IMG/VR virus record: IMGVR_UViG_3300037692_000137
Span: 170,229-234,228 of that record
Direction: 5' to 3' (one strand)
Source: a virus
Lineage: Duplodnaviria; Caudoviricetes
DNA length: 64,000 bases
Shown here: positions 10,144 to 35,934 of the stretch, piece by piece
How positions within the stretch are numbered: the stretch's first letter is position 1
Layout of the letters: the number at the start of each line of letters is the position of its first letter
Made by a program: the position numbers and the translations under genes
Notes under the pieces: model-generated
The model's input: the letters and a program-made list of their open reading frames with translations, nothing else
The model's database searches: none
Told to the model about the DNA's origin: nothing

Positions 10144-10407
10144 CATATATATTCGAGTAAGATCGTTAAACTTACCCCGTCTATAATTTCTAGACAGCTG
10201 CATGTTTCCATACAGATTAGACTATATCACCAACCAATCTGGTTGCTACGCGCTTCCACTCACTTGAGTGTACTTCCTTTCGGAATAGTCGTTGCAGGTT
10301 CCTCATTAATAGAGGCTTCCCTCAGGATTGTCCTCGACTTGACGTTAGGATATTCCCTGAATTCACGTAGTTTTTCAAATCACATTACTGTAAAAAGCCG
10401 CCTATGG
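10144..10407 (-). ncRNA. Group I self-splicing intron (IA2-like, 264 nt, no homing endonuclease)
   Basis: P1 CCGU/GCGG with U.G at the 5' splice site; P2 with GUAA loop; P3 CUACGUG/CGCGUAG; P4 UCAGG/CCUGA; R CCUGCAACGACUA; S GAUAUAGUC (P7 GACUA/UAGUC); P7.1 UUCC-GAAA-GGAA; P7.2 CACUC/GAGUG; P8 CAACCA/UGGUUG; P9 UGUAUG-GAAA-CAUGCA; terminal G; removal restores an in-frame Csp. Confidence 0.93.
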
Positions 10408-10455
10408 ACGGTCGTTAGAAAACCATTTTACAACACCATTAATTCTTTCTTCCAT
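10408..10455 (-). CDS. csp: Cold-shock protein, exon 1 (MEERINGVVKWFSNDR)
   Basis: AAAGGAG SD; G-VVKWF Csp N-terminal motif; joins in frame to exon 2 (71 aa product). Confidence 0.9.
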
Positions 10456-16033: not shown

Positions 16034-17314
16034 TTAACATAATCTTTTATCTTGTAGTAAGTCTGCAAGCTCTATTAAGCCTCCCCTATGTGAATTAGGT
16101 AACTCAACATAAGCTAAACTTTTGTGTGGTAGTATCCTAAGTAATTTTAATAAACCAGACTCTGACGGTCTTACAACATTATAAGTTTGCGCTAAGTCAC
16201 CAAGTAGTATTAGTTTACTACCTTTATTAGCTCTTGATAGTATCATGCTCATGGTATCAATATCAATTAGTTGACACTCATCACAAATCATTATGTCTGA
16301 CTCTAATATACTCATGCCCTGAATAACATTTATTGGAACAACCTCAAATTTATCCTGAAAGTATCTGTCCTTAACAATGTCATATTTAATACTACCTTGG
16401 TCTTTACTGGAACCTTGACTTCTGGTGTTAGCGTATAGGTAGTACAACGCGCTTAGTATGCCAGCAAACCATGCTTCCATTTTTGCTTGTTTGTCGCCGG
16501 GCAAGAAGCCTATGTCATATTTATGACTTATACCAATTGGGGGTCTTGTAATAAATACTTTGTTATCACTGTTGCACGATAAAGCGTAAGCTGTGCTTAG
16601 TAACGTTTTACCAGTCCCCCACTTACCTGTTATTAAAACACCATCTGCCTCAGTCATTGCATATATAGCACATATCTGGTATATATCCAAAGCCTTAAGT
16701 TTATTACCTTCTACATTGACAGTTCTATACTCAGGAACATTATCTATGCGTGATACTGTAAGGTCAATAGGGTTGGTGGCATATACATAGGCGTTATTTA
16801 ATATAATAAATTTCCAGCACTCTTTGTCTATGTCTAATTTTAGTAGTTTATTAAAATCATCTAAGCTGTAATTTTGTAGATAATTAAACTCCTCTGGTAA
16901 ATCTTTAATATCTAAATATATGTATGGTTTAAATATACCATTTGGAACAACGTCATAGAGTACTGTGGCTACTCCCTTAGTGTTAGCTATTACTGACATA
17001 GATAAGTCTTTTGTAGCTAAGTCAGCTTTATTTTTTAAAGCGGCGTCAATTATTAAGGTATCGTTAGTCTTTAACTCATTATCGTCAGCCGACAAAATTA
17101 ATCTGTCGGGGTAAGCGTCTCTAAAAGCAATTATCTCATAAATGGCTGTTCTGGCACTGTAAGATAAATCAGGATTGAATTTATGTTTATCCAATTCCTT
17201 TAACACTGTTAATGGGACTATTATTTTTTCATACTTAGTCAGGGATTTAAATAATATTTTAGGGTCGTCTAATAATATGTTGGTGTCAATTAAAATGTTT
17301 TTATTTTTTAACAT
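16034..17314 (-). CDS. phoH: PIN-PhoH family protein
   Basis: PIN LIDTNILL...VLKELD...ND...D; ATPase GKWGTGKT, RPP, GFLPGD, QGMS, ICDECQ, LLGDLAQ. Confidence 0.9.
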   Translation of the reverse strand: MLKNKNILIDTNILLDDPKILFKSLTKYEKIIVPLTVLKELDKHKFNPDLSYSARTAIYEIIAFRDAYPDRLILSADDNELKTNDTLIIDAALKNKADLATKDLSMSVIANTKGVATVLYDVVPNGIFKPYIYLDIKDLPEEFNYLQNYSLDDFNKLLKLDIDKECWKFIILNNAYVYATNPIDLTVSRIDNVPEYRTVNVEGNKLKALDIYQICAIYAMTEADGVLITGKWGTGKTLLSTAYALSCNSDNKVFITRPPIGISHKYDIGFLPGDKQAKMEAWFAGILSALYYLYANTRSQGSSKDQGSIKYDIVKDRYFQDKFEVVPINVIQGMSILESDIMICDECQLIDIDTMSMILSRANKGSKLILLGDLAQTYNVVRPSESGLLKLLRILPHKSLAYVELPNSHRGGLIELADLLQDKRLC

Positions 17315-17331
17315 ATATTGTGTATATCTCC

Positions 17332-17895
17332 TTATATATTTTTAGTTAATTCTACATAAAATACAGAAAACGTAAGTAGTTCCACTACTTTAGTGTTTAT
17401 GTCATCTAGCTCCCTGTTGATGTTATTAATAATATATGACGTATCTTTTAAATGCCATTTAACAAAGTCATATGGTGTAAGTGGGTTAATTAAACTAAGA
17501 GTTTCGTGCAGTCTATTTACCATTTTTATAGTAAACGCTTCTTGACTAATAGTGTTTAAATATTTGACTAACTGTGTTTTTTTATTTACAATATTGTCGT
17601 CTTTAAGAAGGAGGGTTAATTCCAGAACAAGATTGGTTATCTTATTACCAAATAAATTCTGTATATCTTGTACTTCTACCCCATCGTAGGTCAGTATATT
17701 TTGTAATATAGCGGCAGCTACTATATACTCATCTTCTACAAATCTAGCTAATAAACAAGCCACATATTCTGGATGCACTAATTTAGAGTTGGATGTAGTT
17801 GTTCTTTCCTGACTTACTTTTGAAAAAAGTAAATAAGCATCTCTAATTGTAGAGGATACTTCTAAATCATTTAGTTCATTCATAATTATCACCAT
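17332..17895 (-). CDS. RelA/SpoT hydrolase-like HD protein with degenerate active site
   Basis: HPEYVA...AAAILQNILTYD (canonical AALLHDxxED)...FGNKITNLVLELT...IKMVNRLHE (canonical KxADRLHN). Confidence 0.7.
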   Translation of the reverse strand: MVIIMNELNDLEVSSTIRDAYLLFSKVSQERTTTSNSKLVHPEYVACLLARFVEDEYIVAAAILQNILTYDGVEVQDIQNLFGNKITNLVLELTLLLKDDNIVNKKTQLVKYLNTISQEAFTIKMVNRLHETLSLINPLTPYDFVKWHLKDTSYIINNINRELDDINTKVVELLTFSVFYVELTKNI

Positions 17896-17957
17896 TAAAT
17901 AATGAAGTTCTTTAATACCTTGTATATCTATACAATGGTTAGATTAATATAAACAAA

Positions 17958-18362
17958 CTATTTACTTGTGTAGGCAAAATTGTTGACTATATTAGGTAGA
18001 GTTATACTTTTAACTGCTGATGGCATCTCATAGGTGGGCTCCGCAGCCCCCTCGGCATTTAATTCAATAGCCGATATGACAAAGTAAGTAATTGTTTTTA
18101 ATTCAACGTTAGGACAAATTATTGTAGTTGCATTTTTATCTACTACATTACAAGCTAGCCTTTTGTCTAACATGTCTGGATAATAGGAACAGTATAAGTT
18201 ATATCCTAGCGTACTTTCGGTATTATTATTATATGACCACGTAGCAGTTACTCCTTTTTTAATAGCGCCAGTTGGCGTAGAGTAACACATAGCAAGTGTA
18301 AATAAAAGCATGGACATTAAAATTTTCATACTATTAGCAGTCCACGTATAAGACTTTTTCAT
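17958..18362 (-). CDS. Secreted or virion fibronectin III-like protein
   Basis: Signal-like N-terminus; ATW...GYNLY...TYFVISA...E...S FN3 pattern. Confidence 0.5.
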   Translation of the reverse strand: MKKSYTWTANSMKILMSMLLFTLAMCYSTPTGAIKKGVTATWSYNNNTESTLGYNLYCSYYPDMLDKRLACNVVDKNATTIICPNVELKTITYFVISAIELNAEGAAEPTYEMPSAVKSITLPNIVNNFAYTSK

Positions 18363-18621
18363 AACCTTGTTTACCTATACTATATAAAACATGCGCATCT
18401 ATGGGTAGTAACATTCTTATATACTTTACGTGGTTATCAATGTTAACAGTCCATTCACTAACTGTGGCTTTAACTATATCTATGTTATTGTGTTCTAATA
18501 AGGTACACAGCATAGGTCCAGCTTCTTTTCTACATGCGCATGAGTCAAACACCAGGTAAAATATACTCTGTTTATCGAAAGCTATGTCTAGTATAATCGG
18601 GTATAAAGCTGATTGAGTCAT
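18334..18621 (-). CDS. Hypothetical protein (95 aa)
   Basis: In operon; 29-nt overlap with the next gene. Confidence 0.4.
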   Translation of the reverse strand: MTQSALYPIILDIAFDKQSIFYLVFDSCACRKEAGPMLCTLLEHNNIDIVKATVSEWTVNIDNHVKYIRMLLPIDAHVLYSIGKQGYEKVLYVDC

Positions 18622-18632
18622 TGTTATTGCCT

Positions 18633-19112
18633 TTATAGTACAGCGTATATTATTAACGGTTCTACAACTATGTATTTAGTAGAGTCATCATAACCAAAAG
18701 CTAGTTTACCTGATTTATCTGGGGTAGCTCTAAATTCAATGGTGGCTACACCATTTACAAACGCTACTTCTAAAGCACCGTAACCTTGTATTACCGCATA
18801 GTCCAGTACATTAACCCCAGTAAGTACATTACCAGTCATATCTTTGAGTGTAGCAGTAACAACAGCTGTATCATAACCGTCGGCTTTTATTGTGGTTTTA
18901 TCTGCAGTAACATAAAGATAAGGCTTAGTAGATACAAACACAGAACTTTCTTTAAATGTGGTTCCATCATATAACCACCCTACCTTTGGTTCTGGTATTA
19001 CTACTGCTGTTTTAGGAATTAACGCTGATTTAGCAGAGTCAAGCGTCATTATATTTACTACAATACCGTTCTCTATAATAGCATATCTGTTTATGCTCAT
19101 ATAATTCTCCAA
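18633..19112 (-). CDS. Tail-fibre-associated protein with Ig-like (invasin-type) domain
   Basis: RYAIIENGIVVNI...VGWLYDGTTF N-terminus; TADKTTIKADGYDTAVVTATLKD. Confidence 0.6.
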   Translation of the reverse strand: MENYMSINRYAIIENGIVVNIMTLDSAKSALIPKTAVVIPEPKVGWLYDGTTFKESSVFVSTKPYLYVTADKTTIKADGYDTAVVTATLKDMTGNVLTGVNVLDYAVIQGYGALEVAFVNGVATIEFRATPDKSGKLAFGYDDSTKYIVVEPLIIYAVL

Positions 19113-19132
19113 GTAGTTTGTTTATTAATATA

Positions 19133-19378
19133 TTATAAAATGGCTTCGTTAGTAATAAGTGCTTTTATATGCACCTGATTACTATTTATATCAACTACTT
19201 TTCCGAAGGCCTCACAAGCTTGGTTGTAACATGTGAATAGAACAACCATTTCATTAACTCCCCCTGCCCTAAAAAATTGACCTATAGGTTCTAAGCTGGT
19301 TTCTCCACAACACTCACAATAATGCTTGCTACTATTACACATACCTTTATTCATACAGTTCTGACAACTTAAGTTCAT
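19133..19378 (-). CDS. Cys-rich hypothetical protein (81 aa)
   Basis: AGGAGG SD; several CxxC motifs. Confidence 0.5.
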   Translation of the reverse strand: MNLSCQNCMNKGMCNSSKHYCECCGETSLEPIGQFFRAGGVNEMVVLFTCYNQACEAFGKVVDINSNQVHIKALITNEAIL

Positions 19379-19400
19379 TTATAGTCCTCCTTTAAAACAA

Positions 19401-20252
19401 TTAAAACATTACAAGCGATTTTAGTATATCTAATAATGTCATTTTTTCATTTAGTCCTATAGCTTTTAGGTAAACTTCTCCAACAATCCAGCGTTCTTTT
19501 GAATAAAGCCTATCTTTATATAGTATTTTAACAAATACAATATTATCTGGGTATATCCTTACTATGTATATATCACCGTCATTTAGTACGGTGCGCTCAA
19601 TAAATGTGGTTTTACTTACTACATCACTTTGTTTAAAGCTTTTAAATGTTTTTTCACAATAAGCTATTTTCTCTTGTTCAAATTTAAGATGTTGTTTGTA
19701 ACTAAAATATTTAGCTGTTGTATTGGTTGTTGTAGGTAATATAAGTATAAAGCTTATTATAGCTATCCAACCTTTAAAAGAAAGCCCTAAAATCCACCGT
19801 TTAATTCTATGTAAAACACGTTTATCACTAAGTTTAGCTACATTAGCAGTTGGTATAATTATGTTGTCAGGAGATATTTCACCTCTTAAATGTTTGTTGG
19901 CTATGACTATAAACGCCTTAGCATCAGGTGGCTTTACCATAACCATTTCTCTAGGTACCTTATGAAACTCTACTAACTCTTTTACTACCTCTTCTGGTAA
20001 ATTTCTAGATAATATTAGACATTTATCTGGATCAGCCCCTCCCCTACCAACAAGTTCTAAGCCACTCTCTCTATTTTCTAGTATTGTGTCAATGATATAC
20101 AAATCATAGTCATACCGCATCATACGTTCTCGGGCTTCTTTTAAACTACTAACTGAATGCACTACACAGTCGTATGGCGCCAGTAATCCTTTGTATAGTT
20201 GTATCATAGCTAAACTTTCTTCAGCTACCAGCACTGCCCTTTTATTGGCCAT
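19401..20252 (-). CDS. Receiver (REC) domain protein with a TM segment and C-terminal domain
   Basis: VLVAEES...YDLYIIDT (phospho-Asp)...LILSR...MVKP; hydrophobic GWIAIISFILILP. Confidence 0.7.
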   Translation of the reverse strand: MANKRAVLVAEESLAMIQLYKGLLAPYDCVVHSVSSLKEARERMMRYDYDLYIIDTILENRESGLELVGRGGADPDKCLILSRNLPEEVVKELVEFHKVPREMVMVKPPDAKAFIVIANKHLRGEISPDNIIIPTANVAKLSDKRVLHRIKRWILGLSFKGWIAIISFILILPTTTNTTAKYFSYKQHLKFEQEKIAYCEKTFKSFKQSDVVSKTTFIERTVLNDGDIYIVRIYPDNIVFVKILYKDRLYSKERWIVGEVYLKAIGLNEKMTLLDILKSLVMF

Positions 20253-20265
20253 AGTTATAACCCCG

Positions 20266-21342
20266 TTATTTAAATATAATATCTAAATCATAATTACAGG
20301 CTTTTATAACTGCCAAGCAAGCCTCCACCACTTTATCGTCATACAATTTTCCAGAGCCCTTAGTTATCTCCTCCATAGCCACATTAATACCTAGAGACGC
20401 CCTATAAGGTCTATGCGATGCCATAGCTTCTACTGTATCTGCTACACCTAGTATCCTAGATTCTATAGATATCTGATCCCCTCTTAAACCATTTGGATAT
20501 CCAGATCCGTCTAGTCTTTCATGATGCTGTAATACCATTCTAGCTATTGGTGCTTCAAAAGGAATGTCACTAATTATATTGTATCCTTCTATAACATGTT
20601 TTTTTAATAATTTAAACTCTGTCTCATTCAATTTGGTTGGTTTAACCAGTAGCTCTTGTGGCACATAAAACTTTCCTATGTCATGCAACATGCCAGCCAA
20701 CTTTATATTTTCTATTTGTGTTTCATCTAAACCATAATACTCAGAAATTTTTACGGCCAGGGCTGTAACACGCTTTTGATGACCGGCCGTATATGGATCT
20801 CGTATCTCCATAGTTTTTGATAAGGCCTCTACAGTTTTATATAAAATACTACTTAAGTCTTTATTGGCCACTGCTAATTTTTCATTTGTTGCTGCTAAAT
20901 TATCTGTTCTTTCTTTAACAAGCTTTTCTAGTTGTTGTTGATACATTTGGTTATCTCTAACCAAGTCATGTTTCTCTAAACACTGGGTTACAGAATGCTT
21001 TAATATTTCTAACGTTATTGGCTTAGTTATAAAGTCACAGGCACCTTTTCTCAGGGCCTCCACCACGAATTCATTACATGTATTACCTGTTATTATAATA
21101 ATCTGTGATGGAGGGTACAATGCTTTAATTTTATCCATTAAGTCTAGGCCCATAGCATCAGGAAGACCTATGTCTAATAGCACTATTGGTGGAGAGTACT
21201 TTTTAAACGCAACTATACCGTCCACCCCTTTAGTAGCATTAATTATATTATCGAACCCAATTACAGATAACATTGTACTTATAACAGATAATATAGACTG
21301 GTCGTCGTCTATTACAAGTATAGGTTCTTTTATTCTTGTCAT
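20266..21342 (-). CDS. REC-HD-GYP cyclic dinucleotide phosphodiesterase (RpfG-like)
   Basis: REC VIDDD/LLDI/IITG/TKP; RDPYTAGHQKRV, LHDIGK, HHERLDGSGYPNGL, VADTVEAM, HRPYR all intact. Confidence 0.93.
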   Translation of the reverse strand: MTRIKEPILVIDDDQSILSVISTMLSVIGFDNIINATKGVDGIVAFKKYSPPIVLLDIGLPDAMGLDLMDKIKALYPPSQIIIITGNTCNEFVVEALRKGACDFITKPITLEILKHSVTQCLEKHDLVRDNQMYQQQLEKLVKERTDNLAATNEKLAVANKDLSSILYKTVEALSKTMEIRDPYTAGHQKRVTALAVKISEYYGLDETQIENIKLAGMLHDIGKFYVPQELLVKPTKLNETEFKLLKKHVIEGYNIISDIPFEAPIARMVLQHHERLDGSGYPNGLRGDQISIESRILGVADTVEAMASHRPYRASLGINVAMEEITKGSGKLYDDKVVEACLAVIKACNYDLDIIFK

Positions 21343-21375
21343 TTAAAGTCTCCAAAAAATCTGTAGAGTGTTTAC

Positions 21376-21690
21376 TTACGGAGTAGTTAGTATAGACAAT
21401 AACGTATCAATTTGTTCTATACTTAAACCTAATTTTATAGCTAGATCTGCTTTTGCTTCTAGCTTACTATCTTCTGTTACAGTACCGACCAGTAATAACT
21501 CATATACGGTAGGTGGTGACGGCACCGGATCTAAAGCGTTATGTGCTTCTTCTTCTGTATCAAACCAATACCACCCGTCCATAGGGTAAGTATATGTTTC
21601 ATGCAAGTCCGCGCGTAGTGTAAAAGTGGGGGCATACACAAAGTTGTCTGCTACTAATAGTATTTGGCTATCCATTTTATAGAACGACAT
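21376..21690 (-). CDS. Hypothetical tail-fibre accessory protein (104 aa)
   Basis: TYPMDGWYWFDTEEEA; directly downstream of the LRR fibre gene. Confidence 0.5.
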   Translation of the reverse strand: MSFYKMDSQILLVADNFVYAPTFTLRADLHETYTYPMDGWYWFDTEEEAHNALDPVPSPPTVYELLLVGTVTEDSKLEAKADLAIKLGLSIEQIDTLLSILTTP

Positions 21691-21700
21691 AATAATCTCC

Positions 21701-24595
21701 TTATGATCCTGCTACTGTCCAACCTTTTGCAGTAGCTATAGATGGGGTATCTAAAGGTATACCGTGGTTCCCTGTTACAGTTATTGTTTGTCCGGATACG
21801 GTAGCTAAATTGGTATATAGTAAGTCTAAACTTTCGGAAGAAAGATTGCAGTTTGCTACTGTAAAAGTATATTTAAACCCAATAGCCTCTACACATGCCA
21901 GATTTGTGCAGCCAAAAAACATATTAGAATAGGCTGAGGATGATGAGGCTTTGTTAACATTAATAGCAGGAACCAAATTTAAAGTATTACAATTTTGGAA
22001 CATGGTTCCAAAAGCAGTACCATTAGCTGTATTTAATAGTGGTATAGTTTGTAGTGATGAACAATTACTAAACATACCAGTAAATGTTATACCTGCTACT
22101 GTATTTAATAAAGGTATAGTTTGCAAAGAAGAACAACCATTAAACATACTACTAAAGTTAGTACCTAATGTGGTATTTAATAAAGACATTACACGTAAAG
22201 AGCTACAATTAAAAAACATATAACTAAAGTTAGTACCTTTGGCCGTATTAATAACAGGCATTTCTTCTAAAGAATAGCAGCCATAAAACATGTAATTAAA
22301 ATTAGTGACGTTAGCGGTATCCAACAAAGGTATGGTTGGTAAAGATGGGCAGTTTTTAAACATATAACTAAAAGTGGTACAGACTGAAGTAGTAAGTGTA
22401 GGTATTTTTTGTAGGGATAAGCAGTTTTCAAACATACTATTCATGACAGTAGCTTTACTAGTATCAATTAAAGGGATTGTTTGTAACGTAGAGCAATTAA
22501 CAAACATATAACTAAAGTTAGTACCCTTAGATGTATTAAATAGAGGTATGGTTTTTAATGATAGGCAACCATAGAACATGTTATTAAAATTGGTGCAGTT
22601 TGACGTGTCTAGTAACGGAAGTTCCTGAAGAGAAACACAATCATAAAAAGTTGAGCTAAAACTAGGGCATTTAGAGGTATTAATCAAGGGTATGGTGATT
22701 AATGAGTAGCAGCTATAAAACATGTTTATAAAATTAGTGCCATTACTTGTATTAATTAAAGGTATGGTTTGTAGAGATCTACAATTAGAAAACATGTAAC
22801 TGAAGTTGGTAACTAAACTTGTATCAAGTAGTGGTACGGTAATTAATGAATAACAACTTGAAAAAGTGCTAGAAAAATTTACACAACTACTTGTATCCAA
22901 AAGAGGTATCTCTTTTAAAGAGTAGCAATATGTGAATGTATTACCAAAATTAGTTACATTAGTGGTATTAAATAAGGGTATTTCAACTAATGAGTTGCAA
23001 CCATTAAACATGTAATAAAAATTTGTTGCGTTGGCAGTGCTTAATAAAGGAACTATTTGCAAAGCAGTGCAACCAGTAAACATATAACTAAAATCAATAC
23101 CTAAAGATGTATCAAATAAAGTTATGGTTTGTAATGCCGGGCAGTCTTGAAACATGTGGCTAAAATTAGTGCAGTTATCAAAACTCATACTACCTGTAGT
23201 TAGTAGTGATCTACAGCCACTAAACATATACATACAATACGTACATGAGTTTGCTGTTATATCTGGAGCCGTCTGCAAAGAGTAGCAATATGAAAACATA
23301 TATGAGGTAGTGGTAGCAACCGGTAGTACTATATTACCTATTTCAACTAAAGATGTGCAATGATCAAACATGTATTCAAGGGTTACAGCTGCAGATAAAT
23401 CCAATTGAGGTACTGACAGTAGAGAGTAACAATTTTGAAACATTCTATCGAGAGTAACACCACTAACAAGATTTATTGCTGGAATAGCCACTAATGATGT
23501 ACAAAAGTTAAACATGTTACCAAACGCAATTCCAGTAGAAAGGTCCAATAAAGGTATGGTACCTAAACTATAGCAATTCATAAACATACTTGAAAATATA
23601 GTACCGTTTGAAGTGTCAATTAATGGTATTTCTTGTAAAGAATAGCAGTTATAGAACATAGAATTAAAATTAGTGACGTTAGCGGTATTAAATAATGGTA
23701 TAGTAATAAGAGATATACAATTATAAAACATATTCAGGCAAGTAGTGCCGTTGGTTGTGTTAAATAGGTTAACATCCTGCAATGATGTACAGGCGTAAAA
23801 CATACTACTGAAAGTAGTACACGCTGTTGTATATAAATCTACACTTCTTAAACCACTGCAACTGTAGAAGATATAACTAAGGTCTGTAATATTGTTTTGG
23901 TATAACTTTACTTGTTCTAAACGTGAAAAACCTATGTATTGATTTCCTGCAGTATAACAACCTACCAGTAGCGTAGATAAATTTGCGCCAGCAATGGCTA
24001 TATCAATAAAGCCTGAATCATACTTTTGTAGATTAGCTTTATTGTGTTTTCTATGAAGGTCTAATACAGTTAAACTTTGACCTGCTTGTGGTATAATAGT
24101 TACTATGGCCTGTTTATAGCCACGAGAACACTCAGTACCATCAAGATTAGCATTATTGTAATCATACTCATGATAGGCCACTACACTGGAAGTATAGTTT
24201 TCTACAGTACCATCACCCCAATCTACAGTATAATCACCATCAGCAGTTAGTGCGCAAAAGGACTCATATTTAGATACCGCATGTAGCCCTACGAACTTCT
24301 CATCAGCACCTGATATAGTAGGTAACTCCAACCAGTCATCAGGTCTTTCCCAAGGCGTACCGCTAGTAGTTAAATTATCGTAAGATAGGGCATAGTTTGG
24401 GAATATTACAGGGTCTTTAGGTAGGGTTATACCGCTGCCCCCACCAGTACCAGAAATGGTTATATCGTCTATTTTTCCAGCATAGGATCTAAAAGTAGTA
24501 TCTACAGGAACAGTACCTCCTTTATTAATTATAGACTGTCTAATAAGATCCTTGGTATCATTTAAGTAAGTTAGTTTTTCGGCTATAGTAGTCAT
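21701..24595 (-). CDS. Receptor-binding-type protein with BspA/DUF285-like leucine-rich repeats (964 aa)
   Basis: Roughly 28 repeats of about 23 aa (LQTIPLINTSNGTNFSYMFxNCxS); N-terminal IAEKLTYLNDTKDLIRQSI tail-fibre-type anchor. Confidence 0.75.
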   Translation of the reverse strand: MTTIAEKLTYLNDTKDLIRQSIINKGGTVPVDTTFRSYAGKIDDITISGTGGGSGITLPKDPVIFPNYALSYDNLTTSGTPWERPDDWLELPTISGADEKFVGLHAVSKYESFCALTADGDYTVDWGDGTVENYTSSVVAYHEYDYNNANLDGTECSRGYKQAIVTIIPQAGQSLTVLDLHRKHNKANLQKYDSGFIDIAIAGANLSTLLVGCYTAGNQYIGFSRLEQVKLYQNNITDLSYIFYSCSGLRSVDLYTTACTTFSSMFYACTSLQDVNLFNTTNGTTCLNMFYNCISLITIPLFNTANVTNFNSMFYNCYSLQEIPLIDTSNGTIFSSMFMNCYSLGTIPLLDLSTGIAFGNMFNFCTSLVAIPAINLVSGVTLDRMFQNCYSLLSVPQLDLSAAVTLEYMFDHCTSLVEIGNIVLPVATTTSYMFSYCYSLQTAPDITANSCTYCMYMFSGCRSLLTTGSMSFDNCTNFSHMFQDCPALQTITLFDTSLGIDFSYMFTGCTALQIVPLLSTANATNFYYMFNGCNSLVEIPLFNTTNVTNFGNTFTYCYSLKEIPLLDTSSCVNFSSTFSSCYSLITVPLLDTSLVTNFSYMFSNCRSLQTIPLINTSNGTNFINMFYSCYSLITIPLINTSKCPSFSSTFYDCVSLQELPLLDTSNCTNFNNMFYGCLSLKTIPLFNTSKGTNFSYMFVNCSTLQTIPLIDTSKATVMNSMFENCLSLQKIPTLTTSVCTTFSYMFKNCPSLPTIPLLDTANVTNFNYMFYGCYSLEEMPVINTAKGTNFSYMFFNCSSLRVMSLLNTTLGTNFSSMFNGCSSLQTIPLLNTVAGITFTGMFSNCSSLQTIPLLNTANGTAFGTMFQNCNTLNLVPAINVNKASSSSAYSNMFFGCTNLACVEAIGFKYTFTVANCNLSSESLDLLYTNLATVSGQTITVTGNHGIPLDTPSIATAKGWTVAGS

Positions 24596-24600
24596 ATTAT

Positions 24601-24849
24601 TTATTCACCATTTATGGCATCAAGTGCAGCACCAATATCGCCTATAACTGACGCACTTACACCTATCTGTGCCCAAACATTAGGGCTTATACTTTTTAGC
24701 ATCCACCTTGTATCATCGCTAAGTTGGTGCACATCTTTACCTACATCATCCGCTACTAAATCTGTTGCTGCTAACCTATCCGCCGCATCAGCGAATAGTC
24801 TAATGTATGGATCAATGCTTATGGTGTTAGAATATTTTGTAAAAGCCAT
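24601..24849 (-). CDS. Hypothetical virion protein (82 aa)
   Basis: AGGGGG SD; within the tail module. Confidence 0.55.
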   Translation of the reverse strand: MAFTKYSNTISIDPYIRLFADAADRLAATDLVADDVGKDVHQLSDDTRWMLKSISPNVWAQIGVSASVIGDIGAALDAINGE

Positions 24850-24862
24850 CTATAACCCCCTA

Positions 24863-25201
24863 TTATATTAATATGTTTACTTTTATACTATCGGTTCCAG
24901 AAGATAGTTTTATTACCTTTGTTTGTGTGTCAGAGTAATTTTGTACTGTATAGTCAGTATTATATCTTACCTCGTACAGTCCGTCTTCAGGTATAAGCTC
25001 TAAAATTTGTACTAGCCTAATCCCATCTGTATCTGACGCGTGTGTAGCGGTTACTTCTTGATTTTGACTAACCCCACTAAAGGTAGTTTGTACTACAGAG
25101 ACAGAGGAACCTCCTATAAAACTGTCTTCGCCAAAGTTATCCACAGCTATGGTGTTAATCTCTGTTATTTCATTGTTTAGTACTTGTGAATAATTTACCA
25201 T
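24863..25201 (-). CDS. Virion protein, paralogue family A (112 aa)
   Basis: MVNYS...SF...TH...ELIP..GLY...DYT...KVNIL shared with the next two genes. Confidence 0.65.
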   Translation of the reverse strand: MVNYSQVLNNEITEINTIAVDNFGEDSFIGGSSVSVVQTTFSGVSQNQEVTATHASDTDGIRLVQILELIPEDGLYEVRYNTDYTVQNYSDTQTKVIKLSSGTDSIKVNILI

Positions 25202-33360: not shown

Positions 33361-33434
33361 AAGGAGACACACGCCATGTCATTACGTTCAATTGTATGTA
33401 CGTGTCGCCGCACCCAGACAAGCCACACTTTCTT

Positions 33435-33502
33435 GTCGATTGGGCGACTATAAATAGGCATTAGGCCCAAAGCGCCCCTATCTATACCAGGTAGGGGGTT
33501 GC
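33435..33502 (+). ncRNA. Pistol ribozyme (predicted cleavage G33498/U33499)
   Basis: P1 GUCG/CGAC, loop AUUGGG pseudoknotting with CCCAA; UAUAAAUAG; P2 GCA/UGC; UUAGGCCCAAAGCG; P3 CCCCUAUCU/AGGUAGGGG; G-U cleavage dinucleotide. Confidence 0.88.
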
Positions 33503-33541
33503 TCTCTGTGTTAGTTTATTAACTTTATATAAGGAGATTGT

Positions 33542-34861: not shown

Positions 34862-34940
34862 TAACGTGAAGGGCAAACCCGGAGCAATCCGGGGACGCAA
34901 AGCTATGGGCCCTCATTGTGAGGGCAGCCAGGTTACCAAA
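34862..34940 (+). ncRNA. c-di-GMP-I (GEMM-I) riboswitch
   Basis: AAG-GGCAAACC-CGGA-GCAA-UCCG-GGGACGCAAAGC-UAUGG-GCCCUCA/UGAGGGC-AGCCAG-GUUACC; GNRA loop; G at the position equivalent to G20. Confidence 0.9.
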
Positions 34941-34965
34941 CAAACCGAATTACAGGAGAATTACC

Positions 34966-35934
34966 ATGAAGAAATCAATCGTTATTTCCGCAATCGTTTC
35001 TCTTATTTCTATTATGTCTACCTCATCAGCACAGGGTGAACTCATTGATGGTCGTTTTACTGTTCTGGATACCACTACCAATTACGAATGGCAGAAACAC
35101 CCCTTCGTGTATACCAATTGGTATGACGGTAAGGACCAATGTGAAGACCTCGTTATGGATGGGCATGATGATTGGGTTATGCCTATGCCCGGCCATTTGA
35201 GAACAATCAAGGGCGTTATCCAGTACCTGGCATACAACTACATGTACTACCACACAATCAAAGAGTATTCAGCTACGGCGGACTACTCATACAACATTGA
35301 TACTGGTGTTGTTGGTGTTGTATCCAAATACAATCTTGGCAACGTTCGTTGTATGCGGGATGCTTCGGCTGATATGGCTGAGGTTATTACCAGCGTAACT
35401 ATCCAGAAAACCGGATATTACACGATGGCCACTTCCATTGCCAACGTAACTGGCATGGTATCAGCATTTGTTGATGGTGTTCTGGTGGCTTCTTACAATA
35501 CCGACTATATCAACACACCTGTTGGTATTGGCAATCTTACCGCCGGCCAGAATCTGGAAGTTACGGTCAATGGCGACAAGGCCGAGGGCATCAACGAAAT
35601 CGATTGGCAGAGTTGGGATATGACCTTTTCTGCCGGTGACATCGAAATCTATGTCGAAGACCCTCCGGTACCCAACAATTGTGTTGCCGCTGAGCCTACT
35701 GAAGAACTGCCCCCGCCGGTGATTGTTGAGGTGGGTATTACCAAGGCGCAAGTACTCAACAGTAAGAACAAGAGTACTTTAACGTTGGTATTGAACGTCC
35801 CTGAACAGATTACTATGGGAGACGGCCCCGCAGACTTCACGTTCTTCGTTTACAAGAATGGTTCAGATGTTGCGTATGTAGGTTCCACCGTAATGACACA
35901 CAAGGGGAATGGTAACATCATTTCCAATAAGTAG
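34966..35934 (+). CDS. Secreted DUF1566 (Lcl C-terminal-like) domain protein (322 aa; start re-called)
   Basis: CAGGAG SD; signal peptide; TVLDTTTNYEWQK...NWYDGKDQCEDL...GHDDWVMP...VRCMRD. Confidence 0.75.
   Translation: MKKSIVISAIVSLISIMSTSSAQGELIDGRFTVLDTTTNYEWQKHPFVYTNWYDGKDQCEDLVMDGHDDWVMPMPGHLRTIKGVIQYLAYNYMYYHTIKEYSATADYSYNIDTGVVGVVSKYNLGNVRCMRDASADMAEVITSVTIQKTGYYTMATSIANVTGMVSAFVDGVLVASYNTDYINTPVGIGNLTAGQNLEVTVNGDKAEGINEIDWQSWDMTFSAGDIEIYVEDPPVPNNCVAAEPTEELPPPVIVEVGITKAQVLNSKNKSTLTLVLNVPEQITMGDGPADFTFFVYKNGSDVAYVGSTVMTHKGNGNIISNK

What the first reader, a model, noticed from the sequence alone, without database searches (positions are those of the whole stretch)
19401..21342. REC-TM and REC-HD-GYP pair in the tail-fibre module: possible phage sense-and-degrade circuit for cyclic dinucleotides
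Seen in sequence: an intact RpfG-like phosphodiesterase and a co-transcribed membrane-anchored receiver protein sit between the LRR fibre gene and Ig-like tail genes; no histidine kinase is present in the window. Established: HD-GYP enzymes hydrolyse c-di-GMP, and some (Vibrio V-cGAPs, Myxococcus PmxA) hydrolyse 3',3'-cGAMP, a CBASS messenger. Inference: with the riboswitch 14 kb away, this phage has both a sensor and an eraser of the same messenger, wired into host phosphorelays. It could lower c-di-GMP late in infection (biofilm dispersal, receptor change) or counter CBASS. This pairing looks like an undescribed phage signalling system.
Basis: partly seen in the sequence, partly recalled or inferred. 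Interest (0 to 1): 0.85.

Follow-up and report, generated by a model that had tools for sequence, protein, structure and literature searches.

The report
Phage phosphorelay with c-di-GMP phosphodiesterase
A 234-kb sediment phage carries an intact, strongly conserved, switch-controlled enzyme of the kind that destroys the bacterial signal c-di-GMP. It also carries a phage-only membrane-anchored receiver protein and, elsewhere in its genome, its own sensor kinase, so it probably brings its own sensing pathway rather than relying only on the host's.

Summary
Observation confirmed. Window 20266-21342(-) encodes an intact REC-HD-GYP protein (358 aa) with every receiver and catalytic motif present. 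Window 19401-20252(-), 13 nt downstream, encodes a receiver/one-TM-helix/about 100-aa C-terminal domain protein (283 aa).

The pair is kept in relatives down to 73% identity, and HD-GYP dN/dS is 0.025. It is therefore not a recent dead capture.

1. The phage encodes its own 1207-aa hybrid sensor histidine kinase, outside the window at genome 19683-23306(-). It is syntenic in the sister phage.
2. The membrane receiver belongs to a tiny family: 19 representatives among 1.84 billion proteins, found here only on phage-like contigs. In four distant members the gene just upstream encodes, or ends in, a kinase-REC-Hpt protein. One cluster also holds REC-HD-GYP and HDOD genes.
3. The riboswitch is a canonical c-di-GMP-I aptamer (75 bits). 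It is absent before the orthologous gene in the 73% relative.

Best reading: a phage-borne RpfC/RpfG-like phosphorelay that gates c-di-GMP hydrolysis. The substrate and the phosphotransfer steps are inferred. A counter-defence role against cGAMP is not excluded. Phage HD-GYPs were already noted (PMC7824862). First-stage notes flagged the same pair in a second genome.

The parts
20266..21342 (-). REC-HD-GYP protein (358 aa), RpfG-like response-regulator phosphodiesterase
   Evidence: Pfam HD_5 4.6e-41, Response_reg 4e-21. Best NCBIfam match is 'response regulator c-di-GMP phosphodiesterase, NosR family', 206.8 bits, below its cut-off of 400. Relatives at 94% and 73-74% identity sit on phage contigs. 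dN/dS is 0.025 against the sister phage.
20989..21321 (-). Receiver domain of the HD-GYP protein (aa 8-118): D12/D13, phospho-acceptor D57, T85, K107
   Evidence: Pfam match over aa 8-118. Motif positions. These residues are invariant in the nine-sequence alignment A5.
20848..20970 (-). Helical linker between receiver and HD-GYP domain (aa ~125-165)
   Evidence: In alignment A5 the relatives differ here by gaps of exactly 7 and 14 residues, that is, whole heptads. Reading this as a coiled-coil signalling helix is my inference from the heptad-sized gaps.
20329..20823 (-). HD-GYP catalytic domain (aa 174-338): H188, H220-D221, H249, H273-H274-E275, GYP at 281-283, D302
   Evidence: Nearest solved structures by sequence are V-cGAP3 5z7c (8.5e-35) and PmGH 4mcw (5.7e-33).
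19401..20252 (-). Membrane-anchored receiver protein (283 aa), member of a small family seen here only on phage-like contigs
   Evidence: 19 hits among 1.84 billion representative proteins, 18 of them at E<=1e-10 and 138-320 aa long. Alignment A1 shows invariant D55, S82, K107-P108 and W255. dN/dS is 0.11-0.24. No match in 50,697 GenBank phage records, and none next to 80 metagenomic HD-GYP loci, mostly ordinary-looking.
19887..20240 (-). Divergent receiver domain of the membrane protein (aa 5-122): acidic pair E13/E14, phospho-acceptor D55, S82, K107
   Evidence: Pfam 28.0 bits against a cut-off of 30.2. The AF2 model has a (beta-alpha)5 layout with pLDDT above 90. Foldseek matches to receiver domains have probability 1.0; for example rank 16 has rmsd 2.3 over 124 residues.
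19710..19793 (-). Single hydrophobic transmembrane segment (aa ~154-181)
   Evidence: Best 19-residue Kyte-Doolittle mean is 2.23. The equivalent segment is present in all 18 family members (1.38-2.59). Six K/R residues lie before it and two after, which fits N-in/C-out. The AF2 model has a long helix over aa 159-203.
19404..19697 (-). C-terminal, probably extracytoplasmic domain (aa 186-283): helix, four-stranded beta meander, two helices
   Evidence: Separate AF2 model with pLDDT 81.9. Conserved F203, Y234-P235 and W255. An HMM of this domain hits only family members.
34863..34941 (+). c-di-GMP-I riboswitch aptamer, the only one in the genome, ending 24 nt before the ATG of an exported DUF1566/Lcl_C protein
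   Evidence: RF03167 66.3 bits and RF01051 75.1 bits, E 5.6e-16. Sequence. Conserved in the sister phage at L001 1008-1086. Absent in L028.
34966..35934 (+). Riboswitch-controlled gene for an exported DUF1566/Lcl_C-like protein
   Evidence: ATG at 34966 with an AGGAGA Shine-Dalgarno sequence. Orthologues in L001 and L028 carry Lcl_C hits. No PHROG match.

Best explanation
The two genes are the output end of a phage-encoded two-component-type phosphorelay.

The phage makes its own membrane hybrid histidine kinase (1207 aa, genome 19683-23306, outside the window). Its domain order is a periplasmic solute-binding-like domain, a second extracytoplasmic domain with a CxxCH motif, then cytoplasmic PAS, GAF, a CckA-like kinase core and a fused receiver.

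Phosphoryl groups from this kinase, or from host kinases, possibly through a host Hpt protein, reach Asp57 of the REC-HD-GYP protein and Asp55 of the membrane-anchored receiver.

Phosphorylation of the first receiver is passed through a helical linker to the HD-GYP domain. That domain hydrolyses a cyclic dinucleotide, most probably c-di-GMP. The infected cell's c-di-GMP level, and with it matrix, motility and surface structures, is thereby reset according to outside conditions.

In this phage and its closest sister, the same messenger is also read by a c-di-GMP-I riboswitch in front of an exported DUF1566 protein.

The membrane receiver is a phage-specific terminal acceptor of such relays. Its C-terminal domain lies outside the cytoplasm and is the unknown output, or a second input.

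Shown: gene integrity, motifs, folds, conservation, purifying selection, the phage's own kinase, and the linkage of the membrane-receiver family to kinase-REC-Hpt genes.

Inferred: the substrate, every phosphotransfer step, the direction of regulation and the physiological effect.
For: - HD-GYP integrity: all receiver and metal or catalytic residues are present and invariant.
- Selection: HD-GYP dN/dS is 0.025 at dS 1.2, as tight as ClpP (0.021) and PhoH (0.045). The membrane receiver is at 0.11-0.24.
- Conservation of the pair: it is kept at 94% and 73-74% identity while upstream genes are swapped or absent.
- Own kinase: HATPase_c 6.9e-24, GAF_2, PAS_9, SBP_bac_3 and Response_reg 1.1e-22 in one 1207-aa ORF with an H-box. 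It is flanked by phage genes and syntenic in the sister phage. dN/dS is 0.05-0.10 in the GAF/kinase/receiver part and 0.16-0.33 in the sensor part.
- Membrane-receiver family: invariant D55, S82 and K107, with a receiver fold.
- Distant members: in four, the gene just upstream encodes or ends in a kinase-REC-Hpt protein. These are the 24-kb contig of P0166, L031, L034 and L035.
- L034 also carries a REC-HD-GYP, a second hybrid kinase and an HDOD protein in the same cluster. The P0166 contig has a faint GGDEF hit next to the kinase.
- Clade: the L034 HD-GYP falls in the same well-supported nine-member clade as the window protein (SH-aLRT 99).
- c-di-GMP relevance in this host: a canonical c-di-GMP-I aptamer at 75.1 bits.
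Against: - No Hpt domain was found in this 89%-complete genome, although the kinase is a hybrid. The path from kinase to the two receivers is therefore incomplete on phage DNA.
- The kinase lies about 170 kb away along the contig and is not orthologous to the kinases next to the membrane receiver in other phages. It shares 25-27% identity with them against 44% with a metagenomic kinase of unknown source (P0127).
- No orthologous kinase was found for the 73-74% lineages, though their contigs are fragments.
- Substrate is unproven. The best solved-structure match by sequence is a 3'3'-cGAMP-specific enzyme, marginally ahead of a c-di-GMP enzyme.
- The genome has no GGDEF, EAL or PilZ gene.
- The riboswitch is missing in the 73% relative.
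Confidence: 0.5

Rival explanations
1. Counter-defence enzyme. The HD-GYP protein destroys host immune cyclic nucleotides, such as the 3'3'-cGAMP of CBASS or other cyclic di- or oligonucleotides, as proposed for jumbo-phage HD-GYPs. The receiver only tunes its activity.
For: PMC7824862 proposes exactly this role for jumbo-phage HD-GYPs. The closest solved structure by sequence is V-cGAP3, a cGAMP-specific enzyme (8.5e-35). The one matching record from a named, cultured phage, Microcystis phage MaAM05, has an HD-GYP annotated as a cGAMP phosphodiesterase.
Against: To my knowledge, known anti-CBASS enzymes are unregulated. Here the enzyme is fused to an intact phosphorylatable receiver and linked to kinase, Hpt, HDOD and a faint GGDEF hit in related phage cassettes. 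That is the make-up of c-di-GMP signalling. The same genome reads c-di-GMP with a riboswitch. The PmGH c-di-GMP enzyme matches almost as well (5.7e-33).
Confidence: 0.2
2. Both receivers are orphan acceptors fed only by host kinases or acetyl phosphate, and the phage kinase serves an unrelated purpose.
For: The kinase is far from the pair and lacks an Hpt domain. It is of separate origin from the kinases linked to the membrane receiver elsewhere. No kinase was detected for the 73-74% lineages.
Against: In four distant members the gene just upstream of the membrane receiver encodes or ends in a kinase-REC-Hpt protein. The only receiver domains in this genome are the kinase's own and these two. 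All three genes are kept in the sister lineage; there the kinase and HD-GYP clusters share a longest contig of 236,830 bp, which is an inference from that shared length.
Confidence: 0.22
3. Recently captured host genes with no role in infection.
For: The nearest non-phage relatives are ordinary bacterial REC-HD-GYP proteins at 42-49% identity.
Against: dN/dS is 0.025 over dS 1.2. The pair is conserved across lineages that are only 54-67% identical in PhoH. There is a gap from 73% to 49% identity to anything else. The membrane receiver has no cellular homologue of comparable score.
Confidence: 0.03

Closest known systems
RpfC/RpfG of Xanthomonas (hybrid kinase with Hpt, feeding a REC-HD-GYP c-di-GMP phosphodiesterase)
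   Same: The output protein has the same architecture, a receiver fused to HD-GYP with all motifs. A hybrid kinase is present in the same genome. In the related phage cluster L034 the full kinase-REC-Hpt plus REC-HD-GYP set is adjacent.
   Different: The genes are on a phage. The kinase here has no Hpt, is CckA-like in its core, and carries different sensors: SBP_bac_3, a CxxCH domain, PAS and GAF. There is an extra membrane-anchored receiver with no counterpart in the Rpf system.
HD-GYP enzymes of jumbo phages noted by Iyer et al. 2021 (PMC7824862)
   Same: An HD-GYP phosphodiesterase encoded by a phage of more than 200 kb.
   Different: That paper treats them as stand-alone counter-nucleotide enzymes. 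In the passages I read it does not describe a fused receiver, a partner receiver, a phage kinase or a riboswitch. In GenBank phage records, full-length REC-HD-GYP matches are below 30% identical and occur only in unannotated faecal contigs.
Solved HD-GYP structures: V-cGAP3 (5z7c), PmGH (4mcw), PA4781 (4r8z)
   Same: 163-181 aligned residues with all metal-binding and GYP residues.
   Different: At the position of the PmGH Glu in 'DPETQNH' the phage protein has Tyr184, as V-cGAP3 does. From memory (Bellini et al. 2014), that Glu binds a third metal, so the phage enzyme may be of the two-metal type. This was not tested.
c-di-GMP-I riboswitches in Clostridioides difficile prophages (Sudarsan 2008, as cited in PMC5473149)
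   Same: A phage-borne c-di-GMP-I aptamer before a gene for an exported protein.
   Different: Here it is on a large uncultured phage that also encodes a candidate degrading enzyme. PMC5473149 states that riboswitches are rarely found in phage genomes.

Membership tests
HD-GYP phosphodiesterase (Pfam HD_5 PF13487; RpfG-type) | HD dyad and further His/Asp metal ligands | tested here: met
   H188, H220-D221, H249, H273-H274 and D302 are present and invariant in A5. HD_5 scores 140.8 bits against a cut-off of 27.2.
HD-GYP phosphodiesterase (Pfam HD_5 PF13487; RpfG-type) | HHExxDGxGYP signature | tested here: met
   HHERLDGSGYP at residues 273-283.
HD-GYP phosphodiesterase (Pfam HD_5 PF13487; RpfG-type) | Hydrolysis of c-di-GMP (or another cyclic dinucleotide) | not testable with these tools
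   This needs an enzyme assay. Sequence matches to cGAMP-specific and c-di-GMP-specific solved enzymes are about equal.
Response-regulator receiver domain (PF00072): HD-GYP protein | Acidic pair, phospho-acceptor Asp, Thr/Ser and Lys | tested here: met
   D12/D13, D57, T85 and K107. Pfam 75.7 bits against a cut-off of 30.2.
Response-regulator receiver domain (PF00072): membrane protein | Receiver fold with phospho-acceptor Asp, Thr/Ser and Lys | tested here: met
   The Pfam score of 28.0 is just below 30.2. The AF2 model has the receiver fold. D55, S82 and K107-P108 are invariant in 18 family members, with an acidic pair at positions 13-14.
RpfC/RpfG-type His-Asp-His-Asp phosphorelay | Hybrid kinase with receiver and Hpt domain encoded with the REC-HD-GYP | tested here: not met
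   A hybrid kinase is present in the genome, but no Hpt was found with Pfam PF01627 or with a profile of phage Hpt domains. The genome is 89% complete. The feature is met in the related phage cluster L034 (Hpt 24.0 bits, E 4.6e-5, just under the 24.6 cut-off).
c-di-GMP-I riboswitch (RF01051) | Covariance-model score above the gathering cut-off, and position before a gene | tested here: met
   75.1 bits against a cut-off of 35. The aptamer ends 24 nt before the ATG. At the two positions where the GGC-variant consensus has G, the sequence has A (alignment). From my memory of Vc2 numbering these are the canonical nucleotides.
Sensor histidine kinase (HisKA/HATPase_c): the phage's own | H-box His, ATP-binding domain and intact reading frame | tested here: met
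   HATPase_c 84.9 bits. HisKA 24.0 bits, sub-threshold, with an SHDFNN H-box. A CckA-like core at 324.6 bits, below the equivalog cut-off. 1207 aa without stops.

The most novel reading that the evidence does not exclude
A lineage of large environmental phages carries self-contained phosphorelays: a sensor hybrid kinase (with or without Hpt) feeding a dedicated, phage-specific class of response regulator. In that regulator the receiver is tethered by one membrane helix to an extracytoplasmic domain of unknown fold, and c-di-GMP turnover enzymes form a second output branch. Through its own periplasmic sensor, the phage would read conditions outside the infected cell. It would then set both the host's c-di-GMP level and a membrane or envelope process such as lysis timing, superinfection exclusion or receptor masking. 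In this phage it would also set a riboswitch-controlled exported protein.
Probability: 0.35. Interest if true: 0.8.

Novelty: new variant of a known kind. Interest (0 to 1): 0.6.

Why it matters
Phages are known to eavesdrop on host signals with single receptors, for example quorum-sensing receptors and the arbitrium system. They are also known to carry single enzymes that erase immune nucleotides.

Here a phage appears to carry a whole sensory chain of its own:
- an envelope-spanning sensor kinase whose sensor part evolves fast;
- two phosphorylatable receivers;
- a c-di-GMP-type phosphodiesterase;
- in the closest lineages, a c-di-GMP riboswitch.

If the chain works as read, infected cells are steered by a viral two-component system that responds to the outside environment. 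This would bear on how phages affect biofilm and surface behaviour in sediments.

The membrane-anchored receiver family is a testable new class of response regulator. The receiver sits inside and the unknown domain outside. I found it only on phage-like contigs.

Tried and rejected
- No DNA match of window 17000-25000 in GenBank phages.
- IMG/VR scans found only fragments of the sister phage for the HD-GYP, the kinase and the membrane receiver. One sister fragment of 152 kb holds the kinase but not the HD-GYP. It is 58% complete, so this says nothing.
- A viral scan with P0006 found nothing.
- The metagenome scan with the HD-GYP alignment used generic motifs and returned 80 mostly ordinary-looking HD-GYP loci. 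It was useful only as a negative control for the membrane receiver.
- Fold searches of the C-terminal domain gave nothing clear. The best VIA Z was 4.6, with none at 5 or above among 48,161 chains. Foldseek/AFDB gave a best E of 5.7e-3 with TM at or below 0.43. The Atlas feature search gave no usable hit. This does not show that the fold is new.
- The sigma-70 promoter and terminator scan was at chance level: 66 found against 64 expected.
- No RNA holder was listed among public runs, and only the probable source sample holds the stretch. Expression could therefore not be examined.
- Literature searches for phage-encoded histidine kinases or two-component systems found no description. Weinberg 2017 and Wright 2020 are not held. 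The ligand of the GGC variant and any cGAMP-specific HD-GYP signature could therefore not be checked.
- The Rfam label 'c-di-GMP-I-GGC' is rejected as the better description, because the canonical model scores higher.
Full report
**Where the finding lies.** The window is the last 64 kb of a single 234,228-bp virus contig, classed as linear and about 89% complete. Earlier notes of this scan describe it as an uncultured sediment or groundwater phage. Window 1 to about 28,200 is a co-directional minus-strand gene array with 32-39% GC. From about 30,000 onward the genes run on the plus strand.

**The observation.** Both ORFs are open at the stated coordinates.

- The 358-aa product of 20266-21342(-) matches Pfam HD_5 (4.6e-41), HD (9.1e-21) and Response_reg (4e-21). 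Its best NCBIfam match is 'response regulator c-di-GMP phosphodiesterase, NosR family', at 206.8 bits, below that model's cut-off.
- Its receiver has D12/D13, D57, T85 and K107. Its catalytic domain has H188, H220-D221, H249, H273-H274-E275, D278, G279, G281-Y282-P283 and D302. All are invariant in the nine closest relatives.
- The linker between the domains differs among relatives by gaps of exactly 7 and 14 residues. I read this as a heptad-periodic signalling helix.
- The 283-aa product of 19401-20252(-) starts 13 nt after the first gene's stop, behind a GGGG run. Pfam sees only half a receiver, at 28.0 bits, just under the cut-off.
- An AlphaFold2 model built on 18 family members (pLDDT 85) shows three parts: a complete receiver fold (1-122), a disordered linker followed by one long hydrophobic helix, and a small beta-rich C-terminal domain. 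Foldseek matches the first part to receiver domains with probability 1.0.

**Not a recent capture.**

- The HD-GYP protein has relatives at 94% identity (P0002, indexed in 113 blocks of the collection) and at 73-74% identity (P0003-P0005). Identity then drops to 49% and below.
- In each lineage with DNA reaching past the gene, the membrane-receiver gene follows directly. The neighbourhood is phage-like: PIN-PhoH, ClpP, an actin-like Volactin, lysozyme and a cold-shock gene.
- The genes upstream are not conserved. Here it is a 964-aa DUF285 repeat protein. The sister phage has proteins of 610 and 464 aa. L005 has a SPRY/BNR protein. In L006 there is none, and the pair opens the block.
- Against the sister phage, HD-GYP dN/dS is 0.025 at dS 1.2. 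This is as constrained as ClpP (0.021) and PhoH (0.045). The membrane receiver is at 0.11-0.24.

**The phage has its own kinase.**

- A Pfam search of the whole contig found three receiver domains. Two are in the pair. The third is fused to an HATPase_c domain in a 1207-aa ORF at genome 19683-23306(-).
- Its domain order is signal/TM, SBP_bac_3, TM, a second extracytoplasmic stretch with a CxxCH motif and a weak Tll0287-like match (E 0.0011), TM, PAS, GAF, HisKA-like H-box, HATPase_c and receiver. The kinase core is CckA-like.
- Its neighbours are phage genes: an intein-bearing ATPase, two DNA methylases, HIT, HD and a resolvase. The same arrangement is found in the sister phage.
- The two kinases are 69% identical overall. 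The GAF, DHp, catalytic and receiver parts are about 80-95% identical (dN/dS 0.05-0.10). The periplasmic parts have diverged (dN/dS 0.16-0.33).
- The genome has no GGDEF, EAL, PilZ or Hpt match.

**The membrane receiver is a small, phage-linked family tied to hybrid kinases.**

- A full HMMER search of 1.84 billion representative proteins found 19 hits. Eighteen are at E<=1e-10, and 17 of these are 283-320 aa long. D55, S82, K107-P108 and W255 are invariant, with an acidic pair at positions 13-14.
- A hydrophobic 19-mer sits at the same place in every member. In the window protein there are more K/R residues before it than after.
- There is no match in 50,697 GenBank phage records. None lies next to any of the 80 HD-GYP loci fetched from metagenomes.

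Contexts of distant members (28-37% identity):

| Member | Context |
|---|---|
| P0166 (24-kb contig) | RNR, homing endonucleases, Volactin and RecA on the contig; the gene follows a 718-aa HATPase-REC-Hpt protein, which follows a 251-aa protein with a faint GGDEF hit |
| L031 | The upstream gene ends in an Hpt domain (1.1e-9) |
| L034 (46-kb contig, with SMC and a split RNR) | Gene order is REC-HD-GYP, kinase-REC, HDOD, PAS-kinase-REC-Hpt, membrane receiver |
| L035 | Follows a 925-aa PAS-HisKA-HATPase-REC-Hpt protein |
| P0168 | Overlaps the stop of a 758-aa gene that could not be looked up |

The three Hpt segments share the phospho-accepting His. The L034 HD-GYP falls in the same supported nine-member clade as the window protein, although on a long branch. 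The window's kinase is not orthologous to these kinases: it shares 25-27% identity with them against 44% with a metagenomic kinase of unknown source (P0127). Different kinases have therefore been recruited in different phages.

**The riboswitch.**

- Rfam's clan competition labels window 34863-34941 as the GGC variant (66.3 bits). The canonical c-di-GMP-I model scores 75.1 bits at the same place, and this is the only hit in the genome.
- At the two positions where the GGC consensus has G, the sequence has A. From my memory of Vc2 numbering these are the canonical nucleotides.
- The aptamer is conserved in the sister phage.
- The 73% relative keeps the DUF1566/Lcl_C gene. Its 95-nt leader has no aptamer, and none was found elsewhere in the 20.8-kb locus (12.8 kb at E<=0.01, the whole at gathering score).
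- Sensor and eraser are therefore not an obligate unit.

**How it most likely works.** The best-supported model is an RpfC/RpfG-like relay carried by the phage. A viral sensor kinase in the host inner membrane reads periplasmic and cytoplasmic cues. Phosphoryl groups reach the two receivers. The phosphorylated REC-HD-GYP hydrolyses c-di-GMP. The membrane receiver is a second terminal acceptor whose outside domain is an unknown output or input.

The missing Hpt means that a host protein, or direct transfer from the DHp domain, must bridge the gap. This is the weakest link.

The rival of counter-defence against cGAMP-type immune signals was proposed for jumbo-phage HD-GYPs (PMC7824862) and cannot be excluded by sequence. 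It is less favoured for three reasons. The receiver is intact. Kinase, Hpt and HDOD domains plus a faint GGDEF hit sit in related cassettes. The genome has a c-di-GMP aptamer.

**Novelty.** HD-GYP genes in jumbo phages and c-di-GMP riboswitches in prophages are both on record. I found no description of a phage-encoded sensor kinase working with receivers, nor of the membrane-anchored receiver family. I rate it a new variant of a known kind. First-stage notes of this scan flagged the same pair in a second genome (e1-5363489 and e1-5363493) and a kinase, receiver and HD-GYP toolkit in another phage-like genome (e1-5406239). None of those notes has been followed up.

Noticed in passing
outside the window: G000:C1:19683-23306 (-) = L013:4684-8307 (-): A phage-encoded 1207-aa hybrid sensor histidine kinase with a periplasmic SBP_bac_3 domain and a second extracytoplasmic domain. 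That second domain carries a CxxCH (haem c-type) motif and a weak Tll0287-like match. The sensor half evolves much faster than the kinase half between sister phages.
   Followed up: partly
window 17332-17895 (-): A 187-aa protein with a Pfam HD_4 match (28.7 bits, cut-off 27.2) and a PHROG 'phosphohydrolase' hit. From memory, HD_4 is the RelA/SpoT-type hydrolase domain, so this may be a (p)ppGpp hydrolase lying 1.5 kb from the HD-GYP gene and next to PIN-PhoH. It would be a second messenger-erasing enzyme in the same block. PMC7824862 mentions HD alarmone phosphodiesterases in jumbo phages.
   Followed up: no
window 34863-34941 (+): Rfam's clan competition reports the aptamer as 'c-di-GMP-I-GGC' (66.3 bits), yet the canonical c-di-GMP-I model scores 75.1 bits. 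The sequence has A where the GGC consensus has G at two positions. The family label is therefore misleading here.
   Followed up: partly
window 21701-24595 (-) and the equivalent positions in L001, L005 and L006: The large gene or genes just upstream of the HD-GYP gene are swapped between relatives. Here it is a 964-aa protein with nine DUF285 repeats. The sister phage has proteins of 610 and 464 aa. L005 has a 745-aa SPRY/BNR protein. L006 has none. This looks like a hypervariable receptor-binding or host-interaction slot.
   Followed up: no
window 19133-19378 (-): An 81-aa cysteine-rich protein (CxxC-type pairs, zinc-ribbon-like by eye) follows the membrane receiver here, in the sister phage and in L005 (80 aa). 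In L006 no gene of like size follows. It has no Pfam or PHROG match.
   Followed up: no
window 33434-33503 (+); L028 11515-11561 (+): A pistol ribozyme at 65.3 bits in the window. A just-sub-threshold partial pistol match (33.1 bits, cut-off 34.5) lies at the corresponding early region of the 73% relative.
   Followed up: no
window 10198-10417 (-); L001 20422-20645; L003 16078-16301: A group I intron next to or within the cold-shock gene, conserved in the sister phage. An earlier report of this scan already followed it up.
   Followed up: no
L034 1848-8855 (+): A compact phage-like signalling cluster: REC-HD-GYP, kinase-REC, HDOD, PAS-kinase-REC-Hpt and membrane receiver, followed by SMC and an RNR split by homing endonucleases. 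It is the most complete version of the cassette seen.
   Followed up: partly
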